Shown here in pieces: positions 3,384 through 43,748 of a stretch of 64,000 bases of DNA. Each line of letters opens with the position of its first letter. The first letter of the stretch is position 1. Below the pieces are notes generated by a model, which did not search any database, was not told the DNA's origin, and saw nothing but the letters and a program-made list of their open reading frames with translations. Source of the stretch: a virus; the IMG/VR virus record IMGVR_UViG_3300045988_120820, positions 64,001 to 128,000 of that record. One strand, 5' to 3'. A program made the position numbers and the translations under genes.

Positions 3384-3402
3384 TCCAAAAAATAAAAAAG
3401 TT

Positions 3403-4449: not shown

Positions 4450-4463
4450 TCAACTCCTTTATA

Positions 4464-4500
4464 AAATAAAAAAAAGAGTAGACAAATTAACATCTACTCT
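4464..4500 (-). terminator. intrinsic terminator between holin and endolysin
   Basis: AGAGTAGA (4475-4482) pairs with TCTACTCT (4493-4500). On the minus strand the hairpin is followed by a T8-containing run. Confidence 0.55.
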
Positions 4501-4510
4501 TTAGTAATTA

Positions 4511-4777: not shown

Positions 4778-5079
4778 TATTTTTCACCTTCTCTTTCATG
4801 TTGTTTTATATCTCTAATATCCAATTTTAAATCATCCATATCATGTTTTAAATCGTCAATTTTAACATTTGTATCTCTTACTTCATTACTTATTCCTTTT
4901 ATGGTCAATGAGAATTCATTTACAGTTTTATGAAATTCTTCTACTGAAGTTTTATATAAGTCTCTATTTTGATTAGCCTCGTTTAAAACTTGTTGTATTA
5001 AAATCCATACTAATATTACAAAAACACCCATTGCACCATAATTACTTAACACCTCCAATAAATCCATTATTAGCACCAC
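4777..5079 (-). CDS. BhlA/UviB-like holin-associated protein (N-terminal TM + coiled coil)
   Basis: 100 aa: GAMGVFVILVWILIQQVL followed by a charged coiled coil. The architecture matches BhlA/UviB family proteins. 1-nt overlap with the holin start. Confidence 0.55.
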   Translation of the reverse strand: MVLIMDLLEVLSNYGAMGVFVILVWILIQQVLNEANQNRDLYKTSVEEFHKTVNEFSLTIKGISNEVRDTNVKIDDLKHDMDDLKLDIRDIKQHEREGEK

Positions 5080-5099
5080 CTTTCTTTATTAATTATTTA

Positions 5100-5795
5100 T
5101 TATAAGGTTATAGTTATTTCAATATATGGTCGAGTACTACCCGTACCACTAAAATATCCATAATCTGTAACTGCGAATCCAGTTGGTGCTAATAGTCTAA
5201 AACCATCAATAGTACCATTTTGGATAGATTGTATTGCTGTACTATTTAATGTTAATGTTAAAGTTCCTCCTTTATTAAAATGAGTACTACTACAATATTG
5301 AGTAGAATTAACATTATTCATTGAAAAGTTTGTAGGTCTATAAGTATTCATATTAGTTGCTCCACTTATTATAGTGTTTAATCCTGCATAATAATACGAA
5401 TGTAAATTAGTTAATTTTAATTTCACGCTTGATATTGTTCCTAATTGTCTAGCTTGTTCAAATAAACTTTTAAAACATATTATTCCTAAATAATTAAAAT
5501 TAGGATAATAACCTTGATATATTCTATCTCTTCTATCATCGTTGAAATTATCTGTAAATGTTCCAGTTGTACTAGAGCCACGATAACTTCCACTCCAATC
5601 AGCATAACCTTTTATAATATATGGTGAAGATGGAGTTGAACCTCCACCTCCAGAAGAGCCATTGCCTAAATCTATTCTTTCCATACCATTAGAAGTTTTT
5701 TTATAAACAGGACAAATTTCCATACCATTAGAAGTTTTTCTATAGATAAGTATGTTATTTAATGAACCATTTTTATTGATGTATATACCACTCAT
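5100..5795 (-). CDS. hypothetical tail-fibre-module protein with internal 13-codon duplication and Gly/Ser linker
   Basis: 231 aa. Contains YRKTSNGMEICPVYKKTSNGMERID followed by GSSGGGGS. Last structural gene before the lysis cassette. Confidence 0.6.
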   Translation of the reverse strand: MSGIYINKNGSLNNILIYRKTSNGMEICPVYKKTSNGMERIDLGNGSSGGGGSTPSSPYIIKGYADWSGSYRGSSTTGTFTDNFNDDRRDRIYQGYYPNFNYLGIICFKSLFEQARQLGTISSVKLKLTNLHSYYYAGLNTIISGATNMNTYRPTNFSMNNVNSTQYCSSTHFNKGGTLTLTLNSTAIQSIQNGTIDGFRLLAPTGFAVTDYGYFSGTGSTRPYIEITITL

Positions 5796-5806
5796 AAAAA
5801 TCCCTC

Positions 5807-8089
5807 CTAATTAATATTTGAAATTTGTGAATCTGTTAAAACTGAATCATATACTTTAATGTACTCATAATCAGAATAACTATTTGTAGCATTATATAAG
5901 TATTTTAATGTTGAAGCTCGTTTTGTATAAATTCCTTGATATTTAGTACCACCTACATTTAAAGTTAATTGCTTTTTAGATGAATCACATCTCATAATTA
6001 AAATTATTTCTCCTGTAGCAACTTTACCTTTTACACTATCACCATTGATTGTAGCTTGATAAACTGTATTTGAAGGCATTATATTACAAGCCATATTATC
6101 AGTCCAATTTCCTGTTCCTGCTCCTAAAGTCACAATGTTATCGCCAGAAGATGATACACTTGCATTTGTAGGATTAACTAATATTTTAGCCACCAATGTA
6201 TAACTATTTAAATTTAATGAACTAACATTGCATAAGAAATATTTGTTTCCATCAAATCTAACTCTACCATTAACCTTTTGCACAGTGCCATTAATTGTAG
6301 CTGATTTATCTCCTACTAAATCCACCCATTTACTTGCTCCACTCGTAAAATTAGATGCATTTAATTCAAATACAGGATTAGGAACAGTTGTGATAGTTGT
6401 CACTGTAGCACTTGCTGTAATTGCTACATTACCAGTAACTTTAGATATGTTAATTGTATTGTTTGCCACTGAAGTAGAAGTTATATTTGTTCCACCCATT
6501 GTAACTACTATAGAATTAATAGTATATCCATTATAAGCTGTTAATTTTGCACTATATGATTTATTTTTTTCTATACTTGTCATATCATTATTTGTAATTA
6601 CATTAGTTAAGTTATTTGAAATAACATATTTATCAATACTTGGAGTAGTACTTCCTCCACTAGAAGCTCCATCTATTTTTATTAATATATCATTTACCCT
6701 AGCATCTGAAGGAAATTCTGAACCTGTATAAATTCTGATTCCATTTATTTCAATACAACCTAATGCTAATCTACTATTATTGATTTCTCCATTTTTCTTC
6801 ATTTCAAATTGAGAATTGTCAACGTTATAATCTATTTTTCCTTCAACTGAAACATTTATATCTCCGTTAACATCTAATCTATCTGTTACATTTTTTACCG
6901 AATTAACTTCATTTATATCAGCTTTGTTAACATAAGCTTTATCAAATCTATATTTTTCTGAACCTAAACTAGAACTTATCCCTCTTCCGTAGGGTATTAA
7001 ACCTTCTTTGGTTGTACGAATAGCTCTAGTTTCATTGCCATCTTCAGTAATCATACCTTTGTAACCGTCTATCTCTTTAACTAATAAACCTTTTGTTTCA
7101 TTTATTTTTTCGATGTAATTATCATGTGTATGATTTATATCAGCATATTTTTTATCGCAATTATTTTTAAAATCTGTTAGAGTAGTTTTAACACTATCTT
7201 GTAAATCTTTTATGTCTTTTTCACTAGCAAATCCATCAAAATCAATATTGTTATTGTCCATAATTATTTCAACTAACCATGTACCTATATAACTTAATCT
7301 ACACTTATAATAACCTCTAGCAAGTCTATAAATATAATCTTTTTCTGCACTTCTAAATGTTGCATAAATCACTTCTGATGTATTTATGTATAGTATAAAT
7401 TCATTATGAAAGCTTATACTAGGAAGTTTTATAACCAAATCATTATTTGTAGTTACACTTTGATATTTATCTAAAGATAAACTTATTTCTCCGTTTACAG
7501 GAAGTTTATTTACAACTAAATTGTCTAATGAATAATATAAAGCATCTTCTATTTTATTCATTTTTTGTGCTGTTATAGTGTCTTTATCATACCATGTAGT
7601 TTTATTATATCTTTTATTTACATCAAATATATTTATGGGGTCTCCTATAGTTATATGAGAACTTCCTACACCACCTTGATTTATTCCACTTGAAGTATCT
7701 TCTGAATAATCAATTATGGGATTTACATGAAATTGATTATAAACTATAGGTAAATGGATTTCACTGTTATCCTTACCAAATAATTTTATTTGAAAATTAT
7801 AATCTCCTATTTCTACAACTTCATCAACTATATCTTCTGTTACTTTTAAAATTATTTCGTTGATATCCACTGCTGTTTTAGGAAGAACTACTTTAGTTTT
7901 ATTAGGTTTTTCTAATGTTATTTGAGAATAACTAGCACCTTCTATACCTTCACCATTGGAAAACTTATAAGGAAAGCCATCAACAGTAAAATAAAGTACT
8001 ATATCTTTATCTTTTTTACTTAAAAATACATCTCTATCTAATGTCGCTTTACCACTTTTTATTTTTATATTAAATTTACCGTACATCAT
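5807..8089 (-). CDS. tail fibre / receptor-binding protein (BppU-like N-terminus, ~75-aa repeat module, C-terminal LamG/ConA-like lectin domain)
   Basis: 760 aa. N-terminus KFNIKIKSGKATLDRDVFLSKKDKDIVLYFTVDG. The C-terminus ends YIKVYDSVLTDSQISNIN, typical of LamG-type domains. Its repeat module is shared with 37349-39166. Confidence 0.7.
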   Translation of the reverse strand: MMYGKFNIKIKSGKATLDRDVFLSKKDKDIVLYFTVDGFPYKFSNGEGIEGASYSQITLEKPNKTKVVLPKTAVDINEIILKVTEDIVDEVVEIGDYNFQIKLFGKDNSEIHLPIVYNQFHVNPIIDYSEDTSSGINQGGVGSSHITIGDPINIFDVNKRYNKTTWYDKDTITAQKMNKIEDALYYSLDNLVVNKLPVNGEISLSLDKYQSVTTNNDLVIKLPSISFHNEFILYINTSEVIYATFRSAEKDYIYRLARGYYKCRLSYIGTWLVEIIMDNNNIDFDGFASEKDIKDLQDSVKTTLTDFKNNCDKKYADINHTHDNYIEKINETKGLLVKEIDGYKGMITEDGNETRAIRTTKEGLIPYGRGISSSLGSEKYRFDKAYVNKADINEVNSVKNVTDRLDVNGDINVSVEGKIDYNVDNSQFEMKKNGEINNSRLALGCIEINGIRIYTGSEFPSDARVNDILIKIDGASSGGSTTPSIDKYVISNNLTNVITNNDMTSIEKNKSYSAKLTAYNGYTINSIVVTMGGTNITSTSVANNTINISKVTGNVAITASATVTTITTVPNPVFELNASNFTSGASKWVDLVGDKSATINGTVQKVNGRVRFDGNKYFLCNVSSLNLNSYTLVAKILVNPTNASVSSSGDNIVTLGAGTGNWTDNMACNIMPSNTVYQATINGDSVKGKVATGEIILIMRCDSSKKQLTLNVGGTKYQGIYTKRASTLKYLYNATNSYSDYEYIKVYDSVLTDSQISNIN

Positions 8090-14486: not shown

Positions 14487-14499
14487 TATACTAAATTTA

Positions 14500-15729
14500 T
14501 TAATTATTTTTAATCTGTAATGTTTCTAATAAAATTTCTTCTATATTATCTATATCATAATACCAAATTTCTAATAAATTAATATTACGTTCTTTTGCAT
14601 ATTCCTTTTTTCTACGGTCATGTTCTAATTGACGTTCAAATTTTTCTTTAGTTTGCCAACCCTCTTGCCATTTTTCATGTTGAATTCCTTGACATTCTAT
14701 TAATAGATTATAATCTGGTAAATAAAAATCGTAAGATAAATTACCACCTTTTAATCCAATTAAACCATTATATTCTACTTGAATATTATAGTTTATATTA
14801 TATTTTTCTAAAATATCTTTAGTTTTTATTTCTAACTGTGAAGAATTGCACTCTTTACACACTACACCTGTATCTACTTTATTTAAATTTAATAAACTTC
14901 TTTCAAATTCTTGTCCGCATTTTTCACAAATAAATTTATATTTTTTGTTACTCATAGGTGAAACTTCAAAAGGTGATTTTTTATTATTTTTACTCCAATA
15001 TTTAGCTTTTTCGGGATATAAACTACCAAAGCTGTCTTTCGGATGTACTTTATGATTACTACAATATGAACATCTACAACCATTGTAAAATTTACTTGGA
15101 ATGGTTTTATACCCACCATAATCATTATGATAATCTTTTTCTTGACACAATATCCAAATATCTCTCGCATTATTTTTACTTATTTTAAATGGATTTAAAG
15201 TATTTTTGCTACTCCAATATTTCTCTACAGCATCTTCTCCATAAGTATTTATTAAATATTGTCCAAAACTGTCTTTAGGATGAACTTTTTTACTAGAGCA
15301 ATAAGGACATCTTGCTTCTTCTGTGAAATGAGCAGGTGTTATAAAATAACTTCCATGATAATCTTTCTTATCACATTTAATAACCACCTTTTCTTTATAA
15401 TATTTATTTATTAAATAAGGATTGACTGTATTTTTCTCCCAATCCCAATATTTATTTAAAGGTTCTTGTAATTCTTGTTGAATATAATAAGCAAAAGAAT
15501 TTTCATAAGTATTACAGCAGTTAGTACATTTACACTTATGTTTTCCTACAAAACCTCCCAATCGTACATCATATTCTTTACCACAATATGGACATTTTAC
15601 TCTAATATAACTTAAATTTTTAGAATATTTACCGTCGATAGTAATTTCTCCGCAATGATAACTCCCAATATAAATATATCCATCACCACGATTTTCAACT
15701 TTTTCTTTATGCTCTTCATTATAATACAT
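14500..15729 (-). CDS. free-standing endonuclease-like protein A: repeated Zn-ribbon modules + C-terminal PD-(D/E)xK-like domain
   Basis: 409 aa. CPYC..C..CC and three W(D/S)xxKN..P...CPYCS modules. The C-terminus has LSYDFYLPDYNLLIECQGIQH. About 70% identical by eye to 47570-48583. Confidence 0.6.
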   Translation of the reverse strand: MYYNEEHKEKVENRGDGYIYIGSYHCGEITIDGKYSKNLSYIRVKCPYCGKEYDVRLGGFVGKHKCKCTNCCNTYENSFAYYIQQELQEPLNKYWDWEKNTVNPYLINKYYKEKVVIKCDKKDYHGSYFITPAHFTEEARCPYCSSKKVHPKDSFGQYLINTYGEDAVEKYWSSKNTLNPFKISKNNARDIWILCQEKDYHNDYGGYKTIPSKFYNGCRCSYCSNHKVHPKDSFGSLYPEKAKYWSKNNKKSPFEVSPMSNKKYKFICEKCGQEFERSLLNLNKVDTGVVCKECNSSQLEIKTKDILEKYNINYNIQVEYNGLIGLKGGNLSYDFYLPDYNLLIECQGIQHEKWQEGWQTKEKFERQLEHDRRKKEYAKERNINLLEIWYYDIDNIEEILLETLQIKNN

Positions 15730-20565: not shown

Positions 20566-23500
20566 CTATAATGATTTATTAACAATATCTTTTAAAGTTT
20601 TATTAATCATTTCTTGCATGTCATCAAGAACATTTTCATCAACACTTCCTTCAACATTAATATTGATATCACCCACATTTAATGTTTTAGAAGTTGTATC
20701 TTTATTCATACCTTCTTTATAATTTACATTTCCTAATTGTTTGAATCCAAGTTCTTTAAATATATCTTTATAGTCTTTTAAATAATCCAAAGCTACTTCA
20801 AGATTATCACACAATTCTGTTTTAATTGAATCACCTAATATTCCTACTGCGTCTCCACTTGTTTCTGCAAAGTCAATCAATTTATCTTGTAAATTGGTAA
20901 TATTACCATTTAAATCAGTAAAAGTATTAGTCATCATCGCATCTTTAACCATTTGTGCTATTTTTTGTGGAGTATAAGTGTCATCTATATTTTGTGTCAT
21001 ATCTTCTTTCTTTTTATCTAAAGCGTCTAATTGTTCTTGGAACATATTATCGATGTCTTCATCAACCTTATTTTGAACTGTTTCATCTAATTTATCTTGA
21101 GCTTCTTTTAAATCGTCTAATAATTCTTTCAACTTAGATTTACCACTCATAGAATTATCTCGTTTTGCTAATTCTATTTTTTTATTAATAGTGTCAATTT
21201 CGTCTTGTTGTTCTTTTAAATTTTTTGCATAATCATCTTCATCACGTTGTTTTTTATAATCATCTCTTCTTTTTTCTATTAATTCTTTTTCTTTGTCATA
21301 TTGTTTTTCTATAGCGTCTTTACGTTTATCTATTTCATCTTTTATTACATCTGTGATTTTATCTTCTATGTCTTTCACTTTATTAAGTTTATCTTTTTGT
21401 AAATCTACTATGTTTTTTTGTAAATCAGCATAATTTTTTTCTGCGTCAGCTAAATCGTCATTTATTAAAGAAGTATATTCTTCTAATAAATCATTAACCT
21501 TTTCCAAATCTTCACTGTTTTGAAAACTGTTTAATACTTCGTCTATATTGCTTACATTTCCTTCTACATCAAATGTGAAACCATATTTAGATAAACTTTC
21601 TTGATATGTAGGAATCTTATTTTTCATATTAGTCATTAAATCCATTTGTTTAGATAGTTGTTCATTCATAAGTTTTAATTTTTCTTCTGTCAATTTAATT
21701 GTATCTACTCCATTTGAATTTTCTAGTTTAACATCTATTATATCAATTTTATTTCCTAGTATATCGAATTGATTTTTTAATTGAGTTATGGCGTTGCTAA
21801 ATTTATACAATTTATCTTCTCTAGTTAGTTTTTCAATTTCGTCATTATTTTCTTTAATTGTATTTTTCATTTCTTGCCATTGTTCTTCACAACTAAATAT
21901 ATCACTTTGTTGTATATCATAATATTTATTAGCTAAGTTTGTAAGTTTATCCAATTCTTCTTTATATTTACTAGCTTTATCGCTTGCTGTATTATTTGAA
22001 GAACCACTAGAAGAGCTACTTTTAGAAGATTTATCGGCTACATCTTGAAGTCGTTTATATTCTTTTTGCATAGCCAATAATTTTTCTTCATAGTTAGTCA
22101 TATTCCCATCTTCATTAAATTTGAATCCTTCTTTTTGAAGTTTTTGTTGAAGTGTTTCTCTTTCAGAAATTAAATCGTCATAATATTCTTTTTGAAGTTT
22201 AGCCTGTTCTTCTAATAATTTATTTTTTTGTTTAAGATATTTAATTTTTTCAGTACCTACTGCTTTTTCCATTTGTTTATCTAATAATGAAGTTTTCTTA
22301 GTTACTGTTTCAATTCTATATTGCAACTCTTTAAATAATTCAACAGAGTACTCAATCATATCTAATACATTTTGATATTCAAGGCTTATAGGAGTTAAAG
22401 CTGTTTCTATATCACCTATACTATTAAAATCTCTCGTAGCATAAGTACTTATTCCACCAGAACTATCTGAAGTAGAATTTGTTGTGCTTATATCATTTGC
22501 AGTTACTACAGGTTGTGAAGTCACCATTGGTGTAGCACTCAATTGCTCTACAGAATAAGGATTATCTTCTATATTAGAAAATTCACCTATAGAATCTCCC
22601 CACATTACTGATTTTCCCTTTCCACTATGAGGAACTTTTGATTTACCTTTTTCTGTATAGCTTAACGTAGCCATTATTGATATACTTCGTGGTATTTCGT
22701 TTATTTTTTGTTTTAAACTATCTAATTTATTTGATATATCGGCACTATTACTAATTATTTTAATATATTTCTCTGGAATTTTTAATCCTTGAAGTGCATA
22801 AAGTTGCTGTAATGCTTGAAAAGCCATTACGGTAACATCTACAACTTTATTTTTTAATTGTATAGCATCTACAGTTCCAAGTTCATCTAATGCATTAGAT
22901 AATGCTACTCCAACTTCAATTTGTTTTTCTGCTGGTAGTTGCCCTATTAAGTCCATTACGGTTGCTATGTCACCTTGAGCTAAAGCTTTATCTATTTTTA
23001 CTTTTATGTCTTTTTCATCTTTTTCATTTAATAGACTATCTATTTCAGCCTTAGCAGTTTTTATTGTATCTTCACCTAAAACATTTATATGACAACTTGT
23101 TACTGCTTCTGGATGGTCAAATACCCATTGAATCATGTCTTCATAAGATTTCAATTCAGATAAATCTTGAATGTTATTTTTAAAAAATGTTTCAATGTTT
23201 TTATCTTTACCTCTTAAATTATCCATTAATTTGGCATAATTTTCAACTTGGTCGGTATTTTCTATATTCGCTCTTAAAGTTTTTACTATTTCATCTTTTC
23301 CGTCAAATTGTTTAAAACTCGCAAAAGCGTCATCTATTTTCTTTTTATCGTCATCAGATACAGCATATTCTCCTGTAACAAACAGTTTACCTACATCTAT
23401 TTTACCTTTTCCAAATTGTTTATCTACAAGATTTTGAACGTCTTGAATTAAATTATTTCTAGTTTCTTCATCATCTTCTACATAAATTTGAGATAATTTA

Positions 23501-24519
23501 GCTGTTAATTCCATATCGTCTAAAGAAAATTCATTGTCGTCCATCAATCGATTAACCAAATCTTTTACTTTGTCTGGTAAATTACTATCTTCTAAAGTGG
23601 CTTTAACTTCTTTGATGTTGTAAACCATTTTTCCGTCTTTTTCTACTGTATCAAGACCACTTAAATCTTGAAGAAAATTATTGTAAGCGTCCCATGTTGC
23701 CATTAAATCTTTAGTTTCTTTATCTGTCATGTTTATGTTTTTACCAAAAGAACGTAAATAAGCATCCATAGCATTTTGAGCCATTTTAGCACTTTCTGGT
23801 AACTCTACCATACTTCTAGCTACATCTTCATTTACTCCCCATAATTTGGCTAAAGAAGGGATTAATTTTTCAATTCCTTGTTCATAAGCAGTAATGTCAC
23901 TTGTGTCTGCGTATGCTTGTTGTAAATCATACAATTTTCTTATTGATTTATCTATTGTTCCAGAATCAAACATTTTTTTCATATTCGATTCAAATAAACT
24001 TTGTTGTCCACTTGTTAATTGAGAAAAATCTAATCCATTTACAACTTCTATCATTTCAGATTGAACGTCACTTTTTAATTTACTGAAACCATCACCTATA
24101 GACAAAGAGTTTACTATACTTTTATTAATTTTTTGAGATTCGGCACTTATTTTTGCTTCAGCATCTACAACTGCCTCTTTAGCACTAGCATACGTATCAC
24201 TTAATTTAGCAAGCCTTTCTGAATAATCTTCTAGCCATGCTGAATCACCTGTTTGAACAAATGTGTTATTAAGTTCATCTTTCTTTTTTCTGATGTTTTC
24301 TATTTGTCTATTATATTCCTTAATTGCTTGTTTATTGAAAGCCCCATCTTTACCAGCAAATCCTTGTCCTTCATTCATTTTGTCTGTAGCATTTCTTTGT
24401 TGGTCTTTATATTCTTGATTCAGAGCCTCTTGTTGTTTCTTGATTAATTTATCATATTTTGCAATTAATTTATCAATATCTCCACCCATCGATAAAATCG
24501 GGTTATTATCTTTATCATA
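20566..24519 (-). CDS. tape measure protein, exon 5 (C-terminal 1317 aa)
   Basis: Long coiled-coil ORF. The proposed 3' splice acceptor lies after G at 24520, and the frame continues from exon 4 (..DIVLG|YDKDNNPILSMGG..). Confidence 0.75.
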   Translation of the reverse strand, partial: YDKDNNPILSMGGDIDKLIAKYDKLIKKQQEALNQEYKDQQRNATDKMNEGQGFAGKDGAFNKQAIKEYNRQIENIRKKKDELNNTFVQTGDSAWLEDYSERLAKLSDTYASAKEAVVDAEAKISAESQKINKSIVNSLSIGDGFSKLKSDVQSEMIEVVNGLDFSQLTSGQQSLFESNMKKMFDSGTIDKSIRKLYDLQQAYADTSDITAYEQGIEKLIPSLAKLWGVNEDVARSMVELPESAKMAQNAMDAYLRSFGKNINMTDKETKDLMATWDAYNNFLQDLSGLDTVEKDGKMVYNIKEVKATLEDSNLPDKVKDLVNRLMDDNEFSLDDMELTAKLSQIYVEDDEETRNNLIQDVQNLVDKQFGKGKIDVGKLFVTGEYAVSDDDKKKIDDAFASFKQFDGKDEIVKTLRANIENTDQVENYAKLMDNLRGKDKNIETFFKNNIQDLSELKSYEDMIQWVFDHPEAVTSCHINVLGEDTIKTAKAEIDSLLNEKDEKDIKVKIDKALAQGDIATVMDLIGQLPAEKQIEVGVALSNALDELGTVDAIQLKNKVVDVTVMAFQALQQLYALQGLKIPEKYIKIISNSADISNKLDSLKQKINEIPRSISIMATLSYTEKGKSKVPHSGKGKSVMWGDSIGEFSNIEDNPYSVEQLSATPMVTSQPVVTANDISTTNSTSDSSGGISTYATRDFNSIGDIETALTPISLEYQNVLDMIEYSVELFKELQYRIETVTKKTSLLDKQMEKAVGTEKIKYLKQKNKLLEEQAKLQKEYYDDLISERETLQQKLQKEGFKFNEDGNMTNYEEKLLAMQKEYKRLQDVADKSSKSSSSSGSSNNTASDKASKYKEELDKLTNLANKYYDIQQSDIFSCEEQWQEMKNTIKENNDEIEKLTREDKLYKFSNAITQLKNQFDILGNKIDIIDVKLENSNGVDTIKLTEEKLKLMNEQLSKQMDLMTNMKNKIPTYQESLSKYGFTFDVEGNVSNIDEVLNSFQNSEDLEKVNDLLEEYTSLINDDLADAEKNYADLQKNIVDLQKDKLNKVKDIEDKITDVIKDEIDKRKDAIEKQYDKEKELIEKRRDDYKKQRDEDDYAKNLKEQQDEIDTINKKIELAKRDNSMSGKSKLKELLDDLKEAQDKLDETVQNKVDEDIDNMFQEQLDALDKKKEDMTQNIDDTYTPQKIAQMVKDAMMTNTFTDLNGNITNLQDKLIDFAETSGDAVGILGDSIKTELCDNLEVALDYLKDYKDIFKELGFKQLGNVNYKEGMNKDTTSKTLNVGDININVEGSVDENVLDDMQEMINKTLKDIVNKSL

Positions 24520-25568
24520 CAATATCTTCAATTAGGTTCGCTACTTCCTAATCAGTTCTCTTATGAACTTCTCTATGTTTCCATAGAAGTTGAGACTATA
24601 TCTTTACCTTTATTAAAGGCACATACCACTTCCACTCGCTTGAGTGTACGAGCATTTGCTCTAGTCGTTGAAGTTTACTTTTATTAATTGCTTAAATTAT
24701 ATTTTTTTGAAAATTCAATACTATTTTTTAATCTATTAGGTTTATATTTCATATCAAATTTATAATAAAATTCTTTTGGTATATATTTTAAATAAGGTCT
24801 GACTACATCAAAAAATTTTCTAAAATTTGTAGCGTTAAAATACAATCTATAATATGTTCTATTCTTATATCCTTTGATTCCAGATTTATCAGTATGTATT
24901 TTTAAATCTATATCAAACCTTCTCTTAAACATGTCTTTAATTCTTACATTATCTTTATAACTGAAGCCTTGAGTATTTAGATACCCAAATCTTTTAGCAT
25001 AATTATTTTTAAACGAAACATGCCAGTTTCCATCATCTAAAAACCAAAGTAATAAACCAAAAGAATTTATATTGTTTAAAACTGTGTCTGATAAATATTT
25101 TTTACCATTTAATAATGTATTCTTTTTAAATTCTTCTTTATTAGGAATTTTTATTCTAACATTAGAATAAATATAAATACCAAATGTTGTATTTTTTTCA
25201 TAATCATATTTAGAATGAGTGTCTATTCCTAAAGAACTAAACGTATATTCTAACCATTCAACATAAAATCTTTGTTTATTGGTATGGACACAACGAATAT
25301 ACTCTCCATTGATATCACCATCCCCTAACATCAATCCATATAAACTATTTATTATTTCTTTCTCATTTTTAATCATGTGAATACTCACTCCTTTTTTTAT
25401 TTTCGCAATTAACTTAAAGTCTTACCTGCTGATTGCCCAATCCTTAAACTTTTTAAAACCATCACGCTCATCATTACTGATTACGTTGTGGTATTAAGGC
25501 TCTAAGGGGTTTCCAGCAATTCAATATGTTTTCTAATAATAATTTCTTATTATAGGGGCTATTTATTA
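24520..25568 (-). mobile_element. group-I-like intron TMP-I4 (family A, 1049 nt) carrying a LAGLIDADG ORF
   Basis: The exon ends GGU with UAA immediately after. A P1-like pairing GGGU|UAAUAAAUA-GCCC is present. The core ACGACUAG..AUAUAGUCUC is P7-like. The insert ends ..AAGAUAUUG. It is homologous to 26451-26860 and 43379-43748. Confidence 0.75.
24684..25376 (-). CDS. LAGLIDADG homing endonuclease (intron-encoded)
   Basis: Two motifs, LYGLMLGDGDI and LLLWFLDDGNW. AAGGAGTG SD upstream. ATG at 25376 is preferred over the track's non-ATG start at 25388. Confidence 0.85.
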   Translation of the reverse strand: MIKNEKEIINSLYGLMLGDGDINGEYIRCVHTNKQRFYVEWLEYTFSSLGIDTHSKYDYEKNTTFGIYIYSNVRIKIPNKEEFKKNTLLNGKKYLSDTVLNNINSFGLLLWFLDDGNWHVSFKNNYAKRFGYLNTQGFSYKDNVRIKDMFKRRFDIDLKIHTDKSGIKGYKNRTYYRLYFNATNFRKFFDVVRPYLKYIPKEFYYKFDMKYKPNRLKNSIEFSKKYNLSN

Positions 25569-26450
25569 ACCCAAGACAATATCTTCACCACAAATATCAA
25601 TTATTTGTTGTTGTAACTCTTTAAATCTTTCTTGTTGTGCAGAAGTTTTATCTACTGTATCGTATAATTTTTTATATTCATCTCTAATATTGGATAAATT
25701 TGTTTTTGCTTTTGTTGAGCTAGTTACTTTATTATTTAAATTGGTTATATTTTCTGCATTTTTTTCTAAAGCGTCATTAAGTTTATTAGCCTCGTCTGTA
25801 AAATGTTGAATAACTTTACCTATTCCCCATGATACGAGCATACCTATACCCATATTTATAACGCCCATAGCTAAATTCATAGCTCCTAAAGCTACTTTTG
25901 TTCCTAATGCTTTAGCCTCTACACCTGCTAAAGCACTTCTAACTGCTGTTAATCCAGAGGCAAATACTCCAGATGATTGACGAGCCTCTTTAAATGAAGT
26001 ACCTATCCCTTTTATTACATTCCAAGATTTTCCAAGATAACTAGCTTGAAATCCTTCTTTTATTGTTGCAAAGAATCCTGGATTAGCAGTCCCAACCATC
26101 GTAGCACTAGATGCTTGTCGTGTTGCAGTGGCTTGTCCTTCTAGTGCAGTAGTTGTACTCAAAGCTTCGGCTTTTAATCTTCTTTCTTGATTAATTAATG
26201 CTTCAAATCCACCACTTTGATTAAATTTTATTGATTCAAAAATACCAGAAATTGCCCCTGCTATTACGGGTAATCCTACACCCATGTCATCTATATACTT
26301 AACAAATTTATCTAACATGTCTAAAGCACTTATACCAATGTCTAAAAATCCTTTTGCCGTATTTCCACTTACAGCTGTATTGACTATACTTCTCCATTTT
26401 TCTTGGAGTAATGTAAGTTTCCCTTGCACGGAGTCTATATATCTTGCATT
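25569..26450 (-). CDS. tape measure protein, exon 4 (294 aa)
   Basis: NARYIDSVQGKLTLLQEKW.. continues the TMP core, followed by hydrophobic Gly/Ala-rich segments typical of TMPs. Confidence 0.75.
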
Positions 26451-26860
26451 CGTTATCTTCACATAAATTCGCTACATTTACGCAGTTCTCTTATGAACTT
26501 CCTATACTTTCATATAGAGTCGAGACTATTTCTTCACCTTCAGCATTATCTGTTAAGGGCAAAGTATTTCCACTATCAATAGCTTATAGTGTACGGTTTC
26601 ACAACCTAGTCGTTGAAAGTTTAATCTAATTTATTAATTATTTTTTAAATCTTTTAAATGATTTTTAATTATATTAGATTAATACTTGCATGAACACCCA
26701 TTGTTTAAGATTACTTAGGATTTAACCATATAATCATCCTTACGTTTTTTCTACTTTCGTACCTTCACGTTTATTGTTACCAATTACGTTGTGGTGTAAG
26801 GCTTTAGGGATTACCTGCTTTTAACTTTGTGTCCTACGCACATTTCTGTACGTACGGAGA
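26451..26860 (-). mobile_element. group-I-like intron TMP-I3 (family A, ~410 nt, ORF-less); 5' junction uncertain (26861 or 26870)
   Basis: Shares UAGGACACAA, GCAGGUAAUCCC..ACACCACAACGUAAU, CAACGACUAG, AAAUAGUCUC and the ..AAGAUAACG 3' end with the capsid and I4 introns. Confidence 0.7.
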
Positions 26861-26977
26861 ATGTTGTTTCTCTTTCATTGAACTTCCGAAAGTGTCGCCA
26901 TTTTCGTACTCTTTCATAAATTTTTCTGCTTGACTCCAGTTACTCATTATTGCTGTGAAAACGTTCAGTTGGTTTTT
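26861..26977 (-). CDS. tape measure protein, exon 3 (mini-exon, ~36-39 aa)
   Basis: Hand translation KNQLNVFTAIMSNWSQAEKFMKEYENGDTFGSSMKE(KQH). This is the xxQxNxFxAxMxNW segment expected after AIAG in TP901-type TMPs. It is not in the ORF track. Confidence 0.7.
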
Positions 26978-28142
26978 CGGTTTGTTATCGTAAAGGCTTT
27001 TTATCCTCTACTTCTTATAGTTTCCTATAAGCCCAGCATACATTTTCACCCTCGTTTAACGTTAGGTATTGATGGTTGCAAACCCATCTCAAGTATTACT
27101 ATATAATACTGTGGAGGAGGCTCGTGATAGGATTATTGCTAACAATATCGCTCACCTATTATGCGTTACGGATGTTCTCTGTTAAGACACCCTCGGTATT
27201 ACCATATCCGTTAAGGACTTAGGCTCTCTTACCACCTTAATCTTTCGATTTAGTTGACCGATACACCCCTCTAATCTACATGATATTTCTACCATGAGTG
27301 GCATAATATTTAATTAATAGTTTATATTTTTTAAATTTTCTTTCTAAATATATATTTGAATTTTTATAAATATAATCACAAAAAGTTAATACATCTTCTT
27401 TTTTATTAGTTACTAATCTAAAGATATCATTGGATTTACAATTCGTTTTGTAAATTCTCCCCAATGGAATATTTGTATTCAAACATATACCTTCTAGGAT
27501 ATTTTTAGTTCCTAATATTTCTATACTTTGATGTTTTTCAGTACAAACAATACAACCATCTCCATCTAAATACCCTCTTATAAAATGAGGTGTTAATTCT
27601 TTAGGAACTTGTTCTTCTGTTGGAAAAGTTAATGTCAATGATTTTCTAGGAGTACATCCTAATTTAATTAAATCTTGCTTCATTTTTTTATTTTTAAAAG
27701 ATACTCTACATCTAAAATCATCTACAATTAATTTTCCCTCAAACCCTATAAAATCTTTGAATTTTTGAAGATGCTCTTTATCTGATAATTGTAAAGAAAG
27801 TTCTATATCATTTCTTTTACCACTTGAAATACTTCCATCGGCATATAAAAATCCTAACCAATAAGCTTTTTCTTCAGAGTCTATTTTCTCAAATATATCA
27901 TCGTTTATCTTCTTTTTATGTGGCATAATATTAACTTTTATACCTTGGTTTTTTAAATAAGAAGAAAATCTACTTCTTGAAATTTTTAATTCTTTACTGA
28001 TTCTAGCTGTAGATACTCCTTCTAAATACATTTTTAAACCCAAATTATATTTTTCTAAAGTTTCCTCCATCATAATATTCACCCCCTTTTTATTCTTTCC
28101 TTTATTAATTATTTTTAAACCTTTTAAACTATTAATTTATAT
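26978..28142 (-). mobile_element. group-I-like intron TMP-I2 (family B, 1165 nt) carrying a LAGLIDADG ORF near its 5' end
   Basis: The exon ends GGU and the insert ends GAUAACAAACCG. It shares AUUAGAGGGGUGUAUCGGU and GGUGAAAAUGUAUGCUGG with the terminase intron 51617-51968. Confidence 0.75.
27276..28073 (-). CDS. LAGLIDADG homing endonuclease with N-terminal HTH (intron-encoded)
   Basis: Motifs WLGFLYADGSI and FIRGYLDGDGCI. N-terminal TARISKELKISRSRFSSYLKNQG is HTH-like. GGGGGTG SD lies 8 nt before the ATG at 28073. Confidence 0.85.
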   Translation of the reverse strand: MMEETLEKYNLGLKMYLEGVSTARISKELKISRSRFSSYLKNQGIKVNIMPHKKKINDDIFEKIDSEEKAYWLGFLYADGSISSGKRNDIELSLQLSDKEHLQKFKDFIGFEGKLIVDDFRCRVSFKNKKMKQDLIKLGCTPRKSLTLTFPTEEQVPKELTPHFIRGYLDGDGCIVCTEKHQSIEILGTKNILEGICLNTNIPLGRIYKTNCKSNDIFRLVTNKKEDVLTFCDYIYKNSNIYLERKFKKYKLLIKYYATHGRNIM

Positions 28143-28313
28143 ACCTGCAATCGCTTCAGCTACAGAAGATTTACTTTTTTTATCTAATTTATCCCACATT
28201 CCTGCTATATCGCCCATGATGTCATAGAAATCTCTAACTTGGCCATTTGAATCGTGCATATCAATTCCAGTTATTTTTTCTATGGCCATTGCTGTTTTAT
28301 TCATTGAAATACT
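28143..28313 (-). CDS. tape measure protein, exon 2 (mini-exon, 57 aa)
   Basis: Hand translation SISMNKTAMAIEKITGIDMHDSNGQVRDFYDIMGDIAGMWDKLDKKSKSSVAEAIAG, the conserved TMP core segment. It is not in the ORF track. Confidence 0.75.
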
Positions 28314-28623
28314 CGAATTGTTATTAACGTTAAGTTTTTTATCTTAACCTCTGGAAGTTTCCTTCATTTTCATCGATTGGTCATTTCCAATCCAGTCTGG
28401 CGTACATATTCCATCTCATATAAGACAGTCGGAGACTCTTGGAGGAATTATATTCTATTTAAATAGTTTCATCCTCTACGCTCTACATTATTGAATAAGT
28501 TTTAATTTATTCAATTAACTCGGTATTAACTTATCTTTATTAATTATTTTTAAGACTTAGTCTTTCTTACCATATGTATTACTACATATATGACCGAATT
28601 TCCCCGAACCGGCAATATTATTT
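28314..28623 (-). mobile_element. group-I-like intron TMP-I1 (divergent family B, 310 nt, ORF-less)
   Basis: A P1-like pairing CGGU|AAAUAAUAUU-GCCG is present. The 3' end AAUAACAAUUCG parallels GAUAACAAAUCG and GAUAACAAACCG of the other family B members. GNRA hairpin GAAG-GAAA-CUUC. Confidence 0.65.
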
Positions 28624-30654
28624 ACCGTCTTTAGCACTTGTTTTCCAACCTGCCATATTTTGCATGATTGTTTTTAAACCATTACCTAATTTACTTGCAT
28701 TTTGTAATGGTTCTTGCCCTGCAATTATAATAGCAACCAACTCTTGCATACTAACACCTAATGTTTTCGCAACAGAAGATGAACGCATCATTGCTTCAGA
28801 TACGTCTTTACCTGTAACAGCATAGTTGTTGTTTGCATAGTTGACCATATCCATCATTTGCATCATTTTGGTAGTTTCTTTGGTGTTACCTTTGACTTTC
28901 ATTGTGACTTTATCTAATGAGTTTGCAACACCACCATAAGATGCTAATGTTGATTTCAAGTATTTATCTGCATCTGCTTGGCTTGTATCTATAACGTTGG
29001 CAAACATAGATGCATTTTTAGCATATTGTAAAGCTTTACTAACATTATGGAAACCAGATTGTAATGCCTCGGCAGTGGAATCAATTATATCAATACTACT
29101 TCTGGCAACCTCTTGACCTGCCTCACTTGCTTTTTGAGTTAACCAATCTAATTGCTTGGCTGTTCCTGTAAAGGTGTCTGGTGCAACTTTTAATAATTTT
29201 TTAATAGCCGTATCTGTATCAATAATAGTACTAGGAATTGAAGATATACCTTGAGTGATAAGTCTACCAATCATATTTGGTATTGAATACATTGATAACA
29301 TAGAGGCTAAATTACTGAAAAATCCAGACGTTTTCTTGGTTGCATTTCCTAATATATTCATTGCTTGAGTTGCACTTCTAGCACCATTAGCAACTCCGTT
29401 TATACCATTTCCGTTAATATTAGATAGACTACTAGAAAAAGTACTTACGTCTTTAGTCAGTGCTTTTAACTCTGCGTCTCTATCTTTTAAATTACTTATA
29501 CTAGCTATAGTTTGTAGTCTTTGTTTAAATTCTTCTACCTTAGATGATGAAGCTCCTAATTCTTGACATCTTCTTGTTAAGTTTGTTAAATCTTGAGATA
29601 CTTTATTAAAATCTGCATCAAATTTTACATTAGCTCTTTTAGTAGAAATTTCACTTTCAAATTGTTTATATTTATTTTCACATTGTGCTATTTTATCTTT
29701 TAAACCATCAAATTCAGCTTTAGCACCTTCTGTATTAGGGTCTATATTTCGTAATTTTGATTGATATTGTTCTATTTGAGTTATTAGTTCTTGTATTCCA
29801 GATGTATTAGCAAATTTACTCGTTCCTAATTCAGCAAGTTTAGCTTTAAGAGATTCTAACTTAGCAACAGATGTATTTATCTTATCGGTGAATGTAATTG
29901 AACCATTCAATCCTTTTAATGACACCGACACATTACTAATCTCTGCATTTAAATTATGTATTTGTTCATATGCCTTGTCAGATTTTAATATTTGACTTAA
30001 ATCAGCACCTTTAACATTATTGATTTTATTTTGAAGTTCTTGAAGTTGTCCCATCTGTGAACTTGTTAAGTTTTTATTTTTGAACATATTATTAATTTGT
30101 TCAGAGGTATTATTAGCCTTTTGTTGAATTTTATCAAATGAACTTATTAAATCTCTACTTATATCTATATTAGATTTATTTTTTAAGTTGTCCATTTTTT
30201 GTGCAGTAGATTGCATCTCACTGTTAATTTTTGATAACTTAGATTCTAACTCGTTATAAGCTTGAGTATTTATAGTTTTAGACATTTGTTTTTGAAGTGA
30301 TTCTGATTGTTTTTGTAAAACTTTATATTTAGCTATAGTATTATCTAATTCTTTATTACCTGTAGAAGTCTTAGTAGAACCACTGCCAAATAAATTTTTT
30401 TGCACGTCTTTACTTAAAGAATTTATTTCTTTTAAAGTGTTTTGTATTTGTTTAAGATTGTTTAATTGGTCATCTTTAAGTTTAAAGGCATTGTTTAGTA
30501 CTTTTTGAAGTTCTTCCATTTGAGCTTTCATTTTAGTAGTATCAAATTTTAGATTAACTTCTTTTTTCTCTAGCTTTTCCTTCAACTTAGCAACTTCTTG
30601 CTCTGCACCACTTCCATCTACAGAAGTTTTTAACCTAATAGTTAAATCTGCCAT
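28624..30654 (-). CDS. tape measure protein, exon 1 (N-terminal 677 aa)
   Basis: Coiled-coil N-terminus, then ..GVSMQELVAIIIAGQEPLQNASKLGNGLKTIMQNMAGWKTSAKDG, the start of the TP901-type TMP core. A stop follows one codon after the proposed GGU splice donor. Confidence 0.8.
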
Positions 30655-31576: not shown

Positions 31577-31714
31577 TTCTTAATCTCCCTTCTTTATTAA
31601 TTATTTTAATACATCTTCTCCTATTTCACACATTATACAAATAGTAATTAGAGTTATAACACAACTGGCTTTGTGTACGATTATATTATATGATTATTTT
31701 AAATTTATATTCAC

Positions 31715-43229: not shown

Positions 43230-43378
43230 TTAGTTTTGTATTTTTATTATAGCGTAAGTAGAAGCTATAGCTACACCTAAATGTACCATACGGTTCATTT
43301 CCATTTCGATTTGATAATCTTTTCTAGCTCCAGTAGTATCTTCGTTTAATTCTACATCGCCTAATCTTCGCATAAGGT
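43230..43378 (-). CDS. major capsid protein, exon 2 (C-terminal 49 aa)
   Basis: Hand translation (Y)LMRRLGDVELNEDTTGARKDYQIEMEMNRMVHLGVAIASTYAIIKIQN. The frame is restored when joined after U at 43749. It is not in the ORF track. Confidence 0.7.
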
Positions 43379-43748
43379 CGTTATTCTTATACCGTTCTCT
43401 AAGGAACTGCTCATGCTTTCACATGAGAGGAGACTATTTCTTCACCCTATATTTATAGGGGCAACCCACTTCCACCCACTTGGGTGTACGAACTTGCGTT
43501 CTAGTCGTTGGAGTTTTTCCTCGTTATATTATAAATTTATTTATAACAGGGGAACTTACCTGCATGAACAGGGATTGTAATGAATTTAATCATTTAGTGT
43601 TTAGGATTTAACCATGCACCATCTCTACGTTTTTTCTACTTTCGTGCCGTTACGTTTTAGTTTTCACTATCCGCTTTGGTGTAGAGCTTTACCCATTACC
43701 TGCAATTCAAGTTGTGTCCTATACCGATTGCTCGATATACGAGGCGTT
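43379..43748 (-). mobile_element. group-I-like intron in the major capsid gene (family A, 370 nt, ORF-less)
   Basis: A P1-like GCUU|..GAGC pairing is present. It shares UAGGACACAA, GCAGGUAAUGGG, CAACGACUAG, AAAUAGUCUC and the ..AAGAAUAACG end with TMP-I3 and TMP-I4. Confidence 0.75.

What the first reader, a model, noticed from the sequence alone, without database searches (positions are those of the whole stretch)
20566..30654. Tape measure gene split into five exons by four group-I-like intervening sequences
The ORF track shows three minus-strand TMP-like ORFs (678, 298 and 1321 aa) separated by gaps of about 1.0 and 2.2 kb. Hand translation of the larger gap reveals two further mini-exons. 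One is 28143-28313 (SISMNKTAMAIEKITGIDMHDSNGQVRDFYDIMGDIAGMWDKLDKKSKSSVAEAIAG). The other is 26861-26977 (KNQLNVFTAIMSNWSQAEKFMKEYENGDTFGSSMKE..). Joined in order, they rebuild one continuous TP901-type tape-measure core: ..GNGLKTIMQNMAGWKTSAKDG|SISMNK..AEAIAG|KNQLNVF..GSSMKE..|NARYIDSVQGKL..DIVLG|YDKDNNPIL... At the proposed junctions the upstream exon ends in U (GGU three times). A stop codon follows within a few nt for I1, I2 and I4, and about 25 nt in for I3. Each insert ends in G and the frame is restored. Short P1-like pairings exist, for example CGGU|AAAUAAUAUU-GCCG and GGGU|UAAUAAAUA-GCCC. Family-A inserts carry a GACUA...AUAGUC pair like the group I P7 core. Two inserts encode double-motif LAGLIDADG proteins. 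Four introns in one phage structural gene, three of them within about 130 codons of its conserved core, would be exceptional.
Basis: partly seen in the sequence, partly recalled or inferred. Interest (0 to 1): 0.88.

Follow-up and report, generated by a model that had tools for sequence, protein, structure and literature searches.

The report
Four group I introns in a phage tape-measure gene
A phage tail-length (tape measure) gene is cut into five pieces by four mobile self-splicing group I introns, two carrying homing endonuclease genes; this is real and neatly documented, but it belongs to an already described phenomenon.

Summary
Confirmed. On the minus strand, five exons (30654-28624, 28313-28143, 26977-26870, 26450-25569, 24519-20566) join into one 2381-aa TP901-type tape measure protein (TMP).

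- **Intron-free relative:** its first 1111 residues align without gaps, at 96% identity, to a single uninterrupted reading frame in a related phage contig (L027).
- **Empty sites:** each of the four inserts is absent, to the nucleotide, from other relatives more than 90% identical.
- **I3 and I4:** td/Twort-like (IA2-type) group I introns. A copy of I4 without its endonuclease gene scores 84 bits on Rfam RF00028.
- **I1 and I2:** a second group I family that Rfam misses. It is supported by covariation and by similarity to introns splitting gyrA and terL in other phages.
- **Endonucleases:** I2 and I4 carry double-motif LAGLIDADG homing endonuclease genes, in the P1 loop and the P6 loop.

One correction. 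The I3 insert is 419 nt (26869-26451), not 410. The corrected 5' exon ends in G, so I3 lacks the canonical U·G pair.

Novelty is modest. Group I introns at three TMP sites were reported for Bacillus cereus prophages in 2008. Clostridioides difficile phage-plasmids also carry unannotated TMP introns. The window holds two more introns, in terL and in a capsid-like gene.

The parts
28624..30654 (-). TMP exon 1 (677 codons), ends ...GAC GGU
   Evidence: ORF. PF10145 profile positions 2-147, E 4.5e-14. Runs straight into exon 2 in L001, L013, L016, L017 and L027.
28314..28623 (-). Intron I1 (310 nt, family B, no ORF). P1 CGGU|..GCCG (IGS 28610-28613); P10 AGUAUU/AAUAUU; P4 UCGGU/ACCGA; P7 GCGUA (28477-28481)/UACGC (28400-28404); terminal G at 28314
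   Evidence: Absent to the nucleotide from L001, L013, L016 and L017. Its 3' half is 82-87% identical to sequences between the gyrA pieces of phiR1-37, AR9 and BpSp and the terL pieces of C. perfringens phage 1181. P7 and P3 covary among these. No Rfam hit.
28143..28313 (-). TMP exon 2 (57 codons)
   Evidence: PF10145 profile positions 150-201. Contiguous with exon 1 in P0002, P0003 and P0004, and with exon 3 in L024, L008 and L027.
26978..28142 (-). Intron I2 (1165 nt, family B). P1 GGUAUA/UAUGCC (3' strand 27300-27305) with the endonuclease gene in its loop; P2 27279-27296; P3 GAGGGG/CUCCUC; P4 UCGGU/ACCGA; P7 GCAUA (27160-27164)/UAUGC (27036-27040); P9 and P9.1; terminal G at 26978
   Evidence: Empty site in L024 and L008. 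Copies of 337-374 nt without the endonuclease gene in L001, L007, L009 and L013. A homologous intron sits at the same ..IAG|K site in a TMP only 28-36% identical (L002). Structure counts: 92.5% paired, 27 of 88 pairs changed on both sides, 0 of 500 shuffles as high. Rfam only 12 bits, not significant.
27276..28082 (-). LAGLIDADG homing endonuclease gene in the P1 loop of I2. The real start is probably the ATG at 28073, behind an AAGGGGG ribosome-binding site. Its last 9 codons overlap the P1 3' strand and P2
   Evidence: Pfam LAGLIDADG_3, E 7e-8. phrog_4645 'endonuclease', E 1.5e-60. Two motifs: LGFLYADGS and RGYLDGDGC. Missing from most related I2 copies; 99% identical copy in L025.
26870..26977 (-). 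TMP exon 3 (36 codons), ends ...AAA GAG.
   Evidence: I3-free alleles read ..SSMKE|NARYID... Gapless alignment to L027.
26451..26869 (-). Intron I3 (419 nt, family A / IA2-type, no ORF). P1 GAGAA/UUCUC (26857-26861), so the cleavage-site pair is G-C, not U.G; P10 AAU/AUU; P2 26833-26857; P3 CAAAG/CUUUG; P7 GACUA (26607-26611)/UAGUC (26524-26528); P7.1, P7.2, P8, P9 and P9.2; terminal G at 26451
   Evidence: RF00028 31.5 bits, E 2.7e-6; 25 bits in L001. The 3' core is 68-80% identical to I4. MFE folding predicts P1 and P2. P2 has a compensatory change in L008. The same P2 sits behind a canonical GGGU/GCCC P1 in L019 and L022. The L008 copy carries an ORF.
25569..26450 (-). TMP exon 4 (294 codons), ends ...UUG GGU
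   Evidence: ORF. Contiguous with exon 5 in P0001/L007, L020 and L027.
24520..25568 (-). Intron I4 (1049 nt, family A / IA2-type). P1 GGGU|UAAUAAAUA GCCC (IGS 25556-25559); P10 UAU/AUA; P2 25533-25555; P3 ACAUAUU/GGUAUGU; P4 UUGCUG/CAGCAG; endonuclease gene in the P6 loop; P7 GACUA (24662-24666)/UAGUC (24594-24598); P7.1, P7.2, P8, P9 and P9.2; terminal G at 24520
   Evidence: Empty site TTGGGT|TATGAT in L020. The 353-nt copy without the endonuclease gene in L001 scores RF00028 84.1 bits, E 2.4e-21, over the full model. It shares 96-97% identity over the 5' part of I4 and 89% over the 3' part. MFE folding recovers P1-P9.2.
24684..25388 (-). LAGLIDADG homing endonuclease gene in the P6 loop of I4. 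The real start is probably the ATG at 25375, behind an AAAGGAG ribosome-binding site
   Evidence: Pfam LAGLIDADG_2, 67 bits, E 2.5e-18. Two motifs: LMLGDGD and LWFLDDGN. Missing from every related I4 copy examined.
20566..24519 (-). TMP exon 5 (1317 codons plus stop)
   Evidence: ORF. 94-98% identical to the downstream TMP frame in L028, L029 and L031.

Best explanation
The region is one late structural gene for a 2381-aa tape measure protein. It belongs to a large (about 135 kb) low-GC phage that shares YomN, YomU, YomV and YomW-type (SPbeta-like) genes and a phiCD211-like TMP. Four mobile group I introns have invaded it.

**How it works (inferred from group I biology).** The gene is transcribed as one pre-mRNA. 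Ribosomes running out of each 5' exon meet a stop codon 0 to 11 codons into the intron, which leaves the ribozyme free to fold. Each intron pairs the end of its 5' exon with an internal guide sequence (P1) and the start of its 3' exon with the adjacent guide nucleotides (P10). It binds guanosine at P7 and removes itself in two transesterifications that end at its terminal G. All four introns sit between codons, so exon ligation restores one continuous frame.

**Two ribozyme families (shown).** I3 and I4 are td/Twort-like IA2-type introns, with P7 GACUA/UAGUC and P7.1 and P7.2 hairpins. I1 and I2 belong to a second family, with P7 GC(A/G)UA/UA(U/C)GC and P4 UCGGU/ACCGA. The window's terL intron and gyrA introns of jumbo phages belong to that family too.

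**Mobility (presence/absence shown, mechanism inferred).** I2 and I4 carry double-motif LAGLIDADG endonuclease genes in peripheral loops (P1 and P6), each with its own ribosome-binding site. These enzymes presumably cut intron-free TMP alleles during co-infection, and repair copies the intron in.

**I3 (unresolved).** Comparative boundaries and P1/P10 geometry place its 5' splice site after GAG. That makes the cleavage-site pair G-C rather than the canonical U.G.
For: **Colinearity**
- The spliced product, residues 1-1111, aligns gapless at 96.2% identity to one frame in L027.
- More distant TMPs (Peptostreptococcus; P0005-P0007) are uninterrupted across J1-J3.

**Exact empty sites**
- All four junctions have empty sites in relatives more than 90% identical.
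- Nearly every occupancy combination occurs: none; I4 only; I2 as the only intron seen, with J3 hidden by a scaffold gap; I2+I3+I4; I1+I2+I4; I1+I2+I3; I1+I3; all four.

**Ribozyme identity**
- RF00028 scores 84.1 bits on the I4 copy without its endonuclease gene and 31.5 bits on I3.
- blastn links the I3/I4 cores to more than 500 phage records, including one annotated 'Group I catalytic intron'.
- Family B model: 92.5% of cells paired against 41-54% for slid controls, and 27 pairs with changes on both sides.
- P7 covaries between I2 (GCAUA/UAUGC) and I1 or Cpe1181 (GCGUA/UACGC). P3 covaries among the gyrA introns.
- P1 and P10 exist at all four sites.

**Endonucleases**
- Pfam and PHROG hits.
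- The genes are present or absent independently of the intron core.

**I3 5' splice site**
- All 13 I3-bearing copies recovered by pattern search, plus the window, L001 and L008, have G at -1, against 1 of 7 close I3-free alleles.
Against: - No RNA or protein data, so splicing itself is inferred.
- Rfam gives no significant score for I1 or I2, nor for the related terL intron. The window's own I4 and I2 cannot be scored because of their endonuclease gene inserts.
- As delimited by the empty sites, I3 violates the near-universal rule that the 5' exon ends in U (PMC2504315). Either it splices poorly or differently, or the mature protein keeps three extra residues.
- The family B structure was derived partly from the same sequences it was counted on.
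Confidence: 0.88

Rival explanations
1. The 5' splice site follows CAU (26861|26860), the intron is 410 nt, and the mature TMP carries three extra residues (KQH). These would derive from foreign 5'-exon sequence brought in with the intron.
For: It keeps the canonical U before the intron and a terminal G, and it stays in frame. TMPs tolerate insertions (general knowledge). AAACAACAU is identical in every I3-bearing allele, including the copy whose TMP is only about 61-64% identical.
Against: - No I3-free allele has KQH, and the bridging sequence is absent from IMG/VR.
- There is no P1 for this site. The U would lie in the loop of the GAGAA/UUCUC hairpin, directly 5' of the guide sequence.
- The only nearby GUG is the 3' strand of P2. 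It becomes CUG in L008, with a compensating change that preserves P2.
- The homologous intron in L022 starts AAAUUUACCA-GCCC. That aligns with AAACAACAU-UCUC as intron sequence.
Confidence: 0.2
2. The gene is dead or permanently split. The pieces are either remnants of a decaying prophage or are translated as separate polypeptides, and the inserts are not removed from the RNA.
For: Gene callers and RefSeq annotate the pieces as separate CDSs. Exons 4 and 5 begin near in-frame GTG and TTG codons.
Against: - Exons 2 and 3 (57 and 36 codons) have no start codon or ribosome-binding site.
- All exons stay open and conserved across alleles with 47-96% identity.
- The inserts have ribozyme cores, and the same exons are fused in relatives.
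- A Pfam domain is bisected by I1.
Confidence: 0.03
3. I1 and I2 are not autonomous group I ribozymes. They could be degenerate copies, or elements that need a protein cofactor or another excision route.
For: No Rfam RF00028 signal. I1 has no P2. I2 has two extra hairpins between P3' and P8, and an insert of about 830 nt in its P1 loop.
Against: - P1 with U.G, P10, P3, P4, P6, P7, P8 and P9 are all present, and peripheral helices covary.
- A terminal G and exact empty sites.
- Relatives interrupt essential genes (gyrA, terL) of lytic phages. AR9 gyrA is annotated as a three-piece join.
Confidence: 0.07

Closest known systems
Group I introns TMP-IVS1, IVS2 and IVS3 in tape measure genes of Bacillus cereus-group prophages (Tourasse & Kolsto 2008, PMC2504315)
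   Same: Same host gene class. Same element type (IA1 and IA2 group I introns, with or without endonuclease genes). Several insertion sites in one TMP. Patchy presence among related prophages. Related introns adapted to different sites through P1, and different introns at the same site.
   Different: Their cases have at most two introns per gene at three sites. This gene has four at once, three of them within 93 codons, and the host is a clostridial-type SPbeta/phiCD211-like phage. I did not test whether any site is orthologous to IVS1-3. One intron here (I3) is not inserted after U.
[quoted passage not shown]
   Same: Several IA2-type group I introns packed into one phage protein gene. The I3/I4 cores hit 267 Staphylococcus phage records by blastn.
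   Different: A different gene, and three introns rather than four. Twort splicing and exon skipping were shown experimentally. Nothing has been shown here.
Phage T4 td intron with I-TevI (own knowledge)
   Same: I4 has the same P1 context (UUGGGU|UAAU...GCC) and IA2-type P7.1 and P7.2, and its endonuclease gene sits in the P6 loop with its own expression signals.
   Different: The endonuclease is LAGLIDADG here, not GIY-YIG. The host gene is structural, not nucleotide metabolism.
Introns in gyrA of the jumbo phages AR9/PBS1, vB_BpuM-BpSp and phiR1-37, and in terL of C. perfringens phage vB_CpeS-1181
   Same: The 3' half of I1 is 82-87% identical to them. They share the R and S elements, P9 to P9.2 and the CA(C/A)GAG-P3' arrangement.
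   Different: Different host genes and different P1 guide sequences.
TMP genes of Clostridioides difficile phage-plasmids of about 130 kb (NZ_CP083617, NZ_CP020426)
   Same: The TMP core is about 42% identical. It is interrupted by family A and family B introns, including two introns that flank an 11-codon mini-exon.
   Different: The insertion sites differ: 7 nt upstream of J2, and two sites upstream of J1. One or two introns were seen within the aligned region. RefSeq annotates the pieces as separate CDSs.

Membership tests
Group I intron | 5' exon ends in U, which forms a U.G pair with the internal guide sequence in P1 | tested here: met
   Met for I1, I2 and I4. I1 CGGU/GCCG; I2 GGU(AUA)/(UAU)GCC; I4 GGGU/GCCC. 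See the next row for I3.
Group I intron | The same feature (U.G at the 5' splice site), for I3 | tested here: not met
   Empty-site alleles place the insert after GAG. P1 is GAGAA/UUCUC, with a G-C pair at the cleavage site. The alternative site after CAU has no P1.
Group I intron | Intron ends in G, and P10 pairs the start of the 3' exon with the guide nucleotides next to P1 | tested here: met
   All four end in G. P10 pairings: I1 AGUAUU/AAUAUU; I2 AAAAA/UUUUU, read on the copy in L001; I3 AAU/AUU; I4 UAU/AUA.
Group I intron | Conserved catalytic core P3-P9, scored by covariance model (Rfam RF00028, gathering score 50 bits) | tested here: inconclusive
   - I4: 84.1 bits, but only on the copy without its endonuclease gene in L001.
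- I3: 31.5 bits, E 2.7e-6, below the gathering score.
- I1: no hit.
- I2: 12 bits, not significant.
- Whole window: nothing at the gathering score.
Group I intron | Core helices supported by covariation (family B: I2, the I2-like intron in L002, and the terL intron) | tested here: met
   88 pairs. 92.5% of cells paired, against 41-54% for slid controls. 27 pairs changed on both sides, against 3-6 for slid controls. 0 of 500 shuffles as high. P3, P4 and P7 are nearly invariant within that set. P7 and P3 covary in I1 and its relatives.
Group I intron | GTP-dependent self-splicing | not testable with these tools
   Needs in vitro transcription and splicing, or RT-PCR.
Subgroup IA2 (td/Twort type), for I3 and I4 | Extra hairpins P7.1 and P7.2 between P7 and P3' | tested here: met
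   I4: GAGCAAAUGCUC and CACUCAAGCGAGUG. I3: GGUUGUGAAACC and CACUAU..AUAGUG. In L001 both are replaced by different but still paired sequences.
LAGLIDADG homing endonuclease | Two LAGLIDADG motifs in one chain, plus a match to the family profile | tested here: met
   I2 ORF: PF14528, E 7e-8, and phrog_4645, E 1.5e-60. I4 ORF: PF03161, 67 bits. Two motifs each. Cleavage activity not testable here.
Mobile intron (homing) | Exact presence/absence polymorphism at the same site among close alleles | tested here: met
TP901-family tape measure protein (PF10145) | Profile match, great length, and position between tail chaperone-like and distal tail genes | tested here: met
   PF10145 on exons 1 and 2. 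2381 aa. A homologue is named TMP by NCBI. A Big_2 tail protein lies downstream and a YomN-like gene upstream in relatives.

The most novel reading that the evidence does not exclude
I3 is a natural, lineage-fixed group I intron that splices after a G, with a Watson-Crick G-C pair where almost all known group I introns have the U.G wobble. It appears to have retargeted its guide sequence (GCCC to UCUC) to a new TMP site. The exon nucleotide at -1 is G in every I3-bearing allele and A in six of seven empty alleles.

A second possibility follows from all internal exons being whole numbers of codons (57, 36 and 294). Exon skipping between the tandem introns could produce in-frame shortened tape measure proteins.
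Probability: 0.45. Interest if true: 0.6.

Novelty: new member of a known kind. Interest (0 to 1): 0.45.

Why it matters
- **Annotation:** the TMP of this phage group, and of C. difficile phage-plasmids in RefSeq, is currently split into unrelated-looking CDSs. That misleads tail-length and host-range analyses.
- **A natural series for studying intron spread:** relatives carry every occupancy state from zero to four introns, with endonuclease gene gain and loss separate from intron gain and loss. This suits the study of invasion, endonuclease loss and site retargeting.
- **I3:** if it really splices after G, it is a rare natural test of how essential the U.G wobble is for choosing the 5' splice site.
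- **Otherwise ordinary:** group I introns in phage structural genes, the TMP included, are established.

Tried and rejected
- **Rfam on the whole window and on 24300-28800** found no group I hit. The endonuclease gene inserts and the speed filters hide the introns. Scanning short slices and copies without those genes recovered them.
- **The CCGUACGUAC..GUGCGUAGG hairpin as P1 of I3**, with its internal U.G as the splice site. Rejected: no G-terminated 3' site restores the frame except one that cuts the P9.2 hairpin. P9.2 covaries between the window and L001 and is homologous to the verified 3' end of I4. The same hairpin is P2 behind a canonical P1 in L022.
- **L007 as an I3-free allele** could not be used, because a run of N covers J3.
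- **Inteins** are excluded by stop codons in every insert. **Group II introns** are excluded by size (310-419 nt cores) and by the absence of a reverse transcriptase or domain V.
- **Host identification** through genome contigs returned only a 2.4-kb fragment from an uncultured Firmicutes genome bin.
- **Literature searches** for phage genes with four or more group I introns, and for phiCD211 introns, returned nothing relevant. I therefore cannot say whether four is a record.
- **Not done:** a covariance model for family B (the full alignment exceeds the practical model length), and a test of whether any site here is orthologous to B. cereus TMP-IVS1-3.

Full report
**Observation**

The minus strand between 20566 and 30654 carries ORFs of 678, 298 and 1321 aa, separated by about 2.2 and 1.0 kb.

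Pfam's tape-measure core (PF10145) is bisected by the first insert. Exon 1 matches profile positions 2-147 and the 57-codon exon 2 matches positions 150-201. The two larger inserts each hold a LAGLIDADG ORF (PF14528 and phrog_4645; PF03161) with two motifs.

**Comparative test**

Protein searches found truncated relatives whose ends show which introns they have or lack. Fetching their contigs, and scanning IMG/VR and metagenomes with short DNA patterns, gave about 30 related loci.

Empty sites exist at the nucleotide level for every junction:

| Junction | Empty-site sequence | Loci |
|---|---|---|
| J1 | GACGGT\|AGTATT | L001, L013, L016, L017 |
| J2 | GCAGGT\|AAAAACC | L024 |
| J3 | ATGAAAGA(A/G)\|AATGC | L025-L031 |
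| J4 | TTGGGT\|TATGAT | L020 |

L027 comes from a 136.8-kb viral contig and has none of the four inserts. The spliced product, residues 1-1111, aligns to it in a single frame with 0 gaps and 96.2% identity.

Occupancy varies freely among relatives:
- none (L027);
- I4 only (L028, L029, L031);
- I2 as the only intron seen, with J3 hidden by a gap (L007);
- I2+I3+I4 (L001, L013, L016, L017, L021);
- I1+I2+I4 (L026, L030);
- I1+I2+I3 (L020);
- I1+I3 without I2 (L024);
- all four (L012, L014, L015 and the window).

The endonuclease genes vary independently of the intron cores. Every other I4 copy lacks its ORF. I2's ORF recurs only in L025. The I3 copy in L008 carries an ORF that the window's I3 lacks.

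**Correction at I3**

Every I3-free allele, close or distant, reads ..KE|NARYID... The inserted DNA is therefore 26869..26451 (419 nt, AAACAACAU...GAUAACG), not 26860..26451.

Structure agrees with the corrected boundary:
- The exon end GAG plus the intron's AA pairs with UUCUC, around an ACAACA loop (P1; also the MFE prediction).
- The 3' exon AAU pairs with the adjacent AUU (P10).
- The next hairpin, CCGUACGUAC..GUGCGUAGG, is P2. It shows a compensatory C-G to G-C change in L008.
- The same P2 recurs, unchanged, behind a canonical GGGU/GCCC P1 in an I3-like intron of an unrelated TMP (L019, L022).

So I3 seems to have retargeted its guide sequence. [quoted passage not shown]

The exon nucleotide at -1 is G in all 13 I3-bearing copies recovered by pattern search. 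It is also G in the window, L001 and L008. Only 1 of 7 close empty alleles has G there.

Whether splicing really occurs after that G, which would give a colinear protein, or after the downstream CAU, which would add KQH, needs RNA data. I favour the former, roughly 2 to 1 or better.

**What the inserts are**

*Family A (I3 and I4).*
- The 353-nt I4 copy without its endonuclease gene, in L001, matches Rfam RF00028 over the full model at 84.1 bits (E 2.4e-21). It is 96-97% identical to the window's I4 over the 5' part and 89% over the 3' part.
- That alignment and MFE folding give P1-P9.2 with P7 GACUA/UAGUC and the IA2-type P7.1 and P7.2 hairpins.
- The window's endonuclease gene sits in the P6 loop.
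- I3 scores 31.5 bits (E 2.7e-6) and shares the I4 core at 68-80% identity.
- P7.1 and P7.2 differ completely between the window's I3 and L001's I3, yet stay paired.
- By blastn, these cores hit more than 500 phage records: Staphylococcus, PBS1/AR9, Lactococcus AM1 (whose TMP is split around a homing endonuclease) and a Clostridium botulinum phage annotated 'Group I catalytic intron'.

*Family B (I1 and I2).*
- Rfam gives nothing significant.
- I2 copies, an I2-like intron at the same ..IAG|K site of a TMP only 28-36% identical (L002), and the window's terL intron align well.
- They support P1, P2 (GAAA loop), P3, P4 (UCGGU/ACCGA), P5, P6, P7 (GCAUA/UAUGC, a pseudoknot with P3), P7.1, P8, P9 and P9.1.
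- 92.5% of cells are paired, against 41-54% for slid controls. 27 of 88 pairs change on both sides, against 3-6. None of 500 shuffles is as high.
- I1 is a compact relative without P2.
- Its 3' half is 82-87% identical to sequences lying between split gyrA pieces in phiR1-37, AR9 (annotated as a three-piece join) and BpSp. It also matches the sequence between split terL pieces in a C. perfringens phage.
- Across these, P7 covaries (GCAUA/UAUGC against GCGUA/UACGC), and so does P3 (GGGG/CUCC, UGAGG/CCUCA, CUGGGG/CCCCAG).
- I2's endonuclease gene lies in the P1 loop, and its last nine codons overlap the P1 3' strand and P2.

**Mechanism**

What is shown: exact, polymorphic insertions with group I architecture, in phase 0, with early in-frame stops, a terminal G, and P1 and P10 at each site, two of them carrying endonuclease genes.

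What is inferred: guanosine-initiated self-splicing of a late transcript that restores the 2381-aa TMP, and endonuclease-driven homing during co-infection.

**Context and novelty**

Relatives are phage contigs of 133-140 kb with YomN, YomU, YomV and YomW-type genes. The nearest cultured-host matches are Clostridioides difficile phage-plasmids of about 130 kb. Their TMP cores are also interrupted: one family A intron 7 nt upstream of J2, and in another strain two introns around an 11-codon mini-exon. RefSeq annotates the pieces as separate CDSs. L022 and L011 add further sites.

The key precedent is Tourasse & Kolsto 2008 (PMC2504315). They describe IA1 and IA2 group I introns at three TMP sites in B. 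cereus-group prophages, up to two per gene, with the same themes of patchy distribution and P1 retargeting.

The kind is therefore known. This is a dense new instance: four introns in one gene, and six in 64 kb. I found no report of four introns in one phage gene, but I cannot claim a record.

**Verdict**

Novelty is modest.

Noticed in passing
window 51617-51968 (- strand): A fifth group I intron (352 nt, family B) splits the large terminase gene as ..ASNDGARG|LRGNVLVADEF.. (exons 52481-51969 and 51616-50342). It has P1 GGU/GCC and a terminal G. Its P8 is the same sequence as the P8 of I3. Pfam terminase ATPase matches span the junction. Rfam gives no hit.
   Followed up: partly
window 43361-43748 (- strand): A sixth group I intron (388 nt, family A; RF00028 48.4 bits, E 2e-11) splits a capsid-module gene (exons 44640-43749 and 43360-43230). 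The joined 340-aa protein matches phrog_4088 end to end. P1 is GCUU/GAGC with a U.G pair.
   Followed up: partly
window, 14 sites, e.g. 14496-14513, 28101-28118, 28536-28553, 26630-26647, 31593-31610, 57612-57629: The motif TTAAAAATAATTAATAAA occurs 14 times within 2 mismatches (0.77 expected), 13 of them on the gene strand. It usually overlaps or follows a stop codon and lies 5-30 nt upstream of a ribosome-binding site and ATG. It also sits inside I1, inside I2 (just before the endonuclease gene) and inside I3. It may be a phage-specific intergenic or late-promoter element, and in I1 and I3 a relic of lost endonuclease genes.
   Followed up: partly
L034 (NZ_CP020426) 3190-3790; L033 (NZ_CP083617) 3440-3740: TMP genes of C. 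difficile phage-plasmids of about 130 kb carry unannotated group I introns. In L034 a family B and a family A intron flank an 11-codon mini-exon (EKVGTALKTIG). In L033 a family A intron lies 7 nt upstream of the J2 site. RefSeq lists the pieces as 'tape measure protein' plus 'hypothetical protein'.
   Followed up: partly
L022 1890-2275 and about 3050-3375; L011 1-75: An unrelated, higher-GC TMP (L022) has an I3-like intron with a canonical GGGU/GCCC P1. It also has a different group I-like insert (P7 GACCA/UGGUC) at the same conserved ..AAG| site as J2. L011 has a family A intron about 14 codons upstream of J3. The TMP core is therefore a multi-site intron hotspot.
   Followed up: partly
window 25576-25585 and 24520-24529: The 10-mer GAAGATATTG occurs both in exon 4, 8 nt before the I4 5' splice site, and as the last 10 nt of I4. 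GAAGAU..G is a conserved 3' tail in family A introns, so the exon copy may be chance or may relate to homing.
   Followed up: no
window 26571-26606 compared with L001 I3: P7.1 and P7.2 of I3 are entirely different sequences in the window and in the otherwise 94%-identical L001 copy, yet both fold. P7.1 of I4 differs in the same way. This looks like module swapping between introns.
   Followed up: no
L002, L003 and L004, about 4064-5900: An EcoRI-family restriction enzyme and methylase pair (PF02963, PF13651) sits immediately upstream of the TMP gene in the phage that carries the I2-like intron.
   Followed up: no
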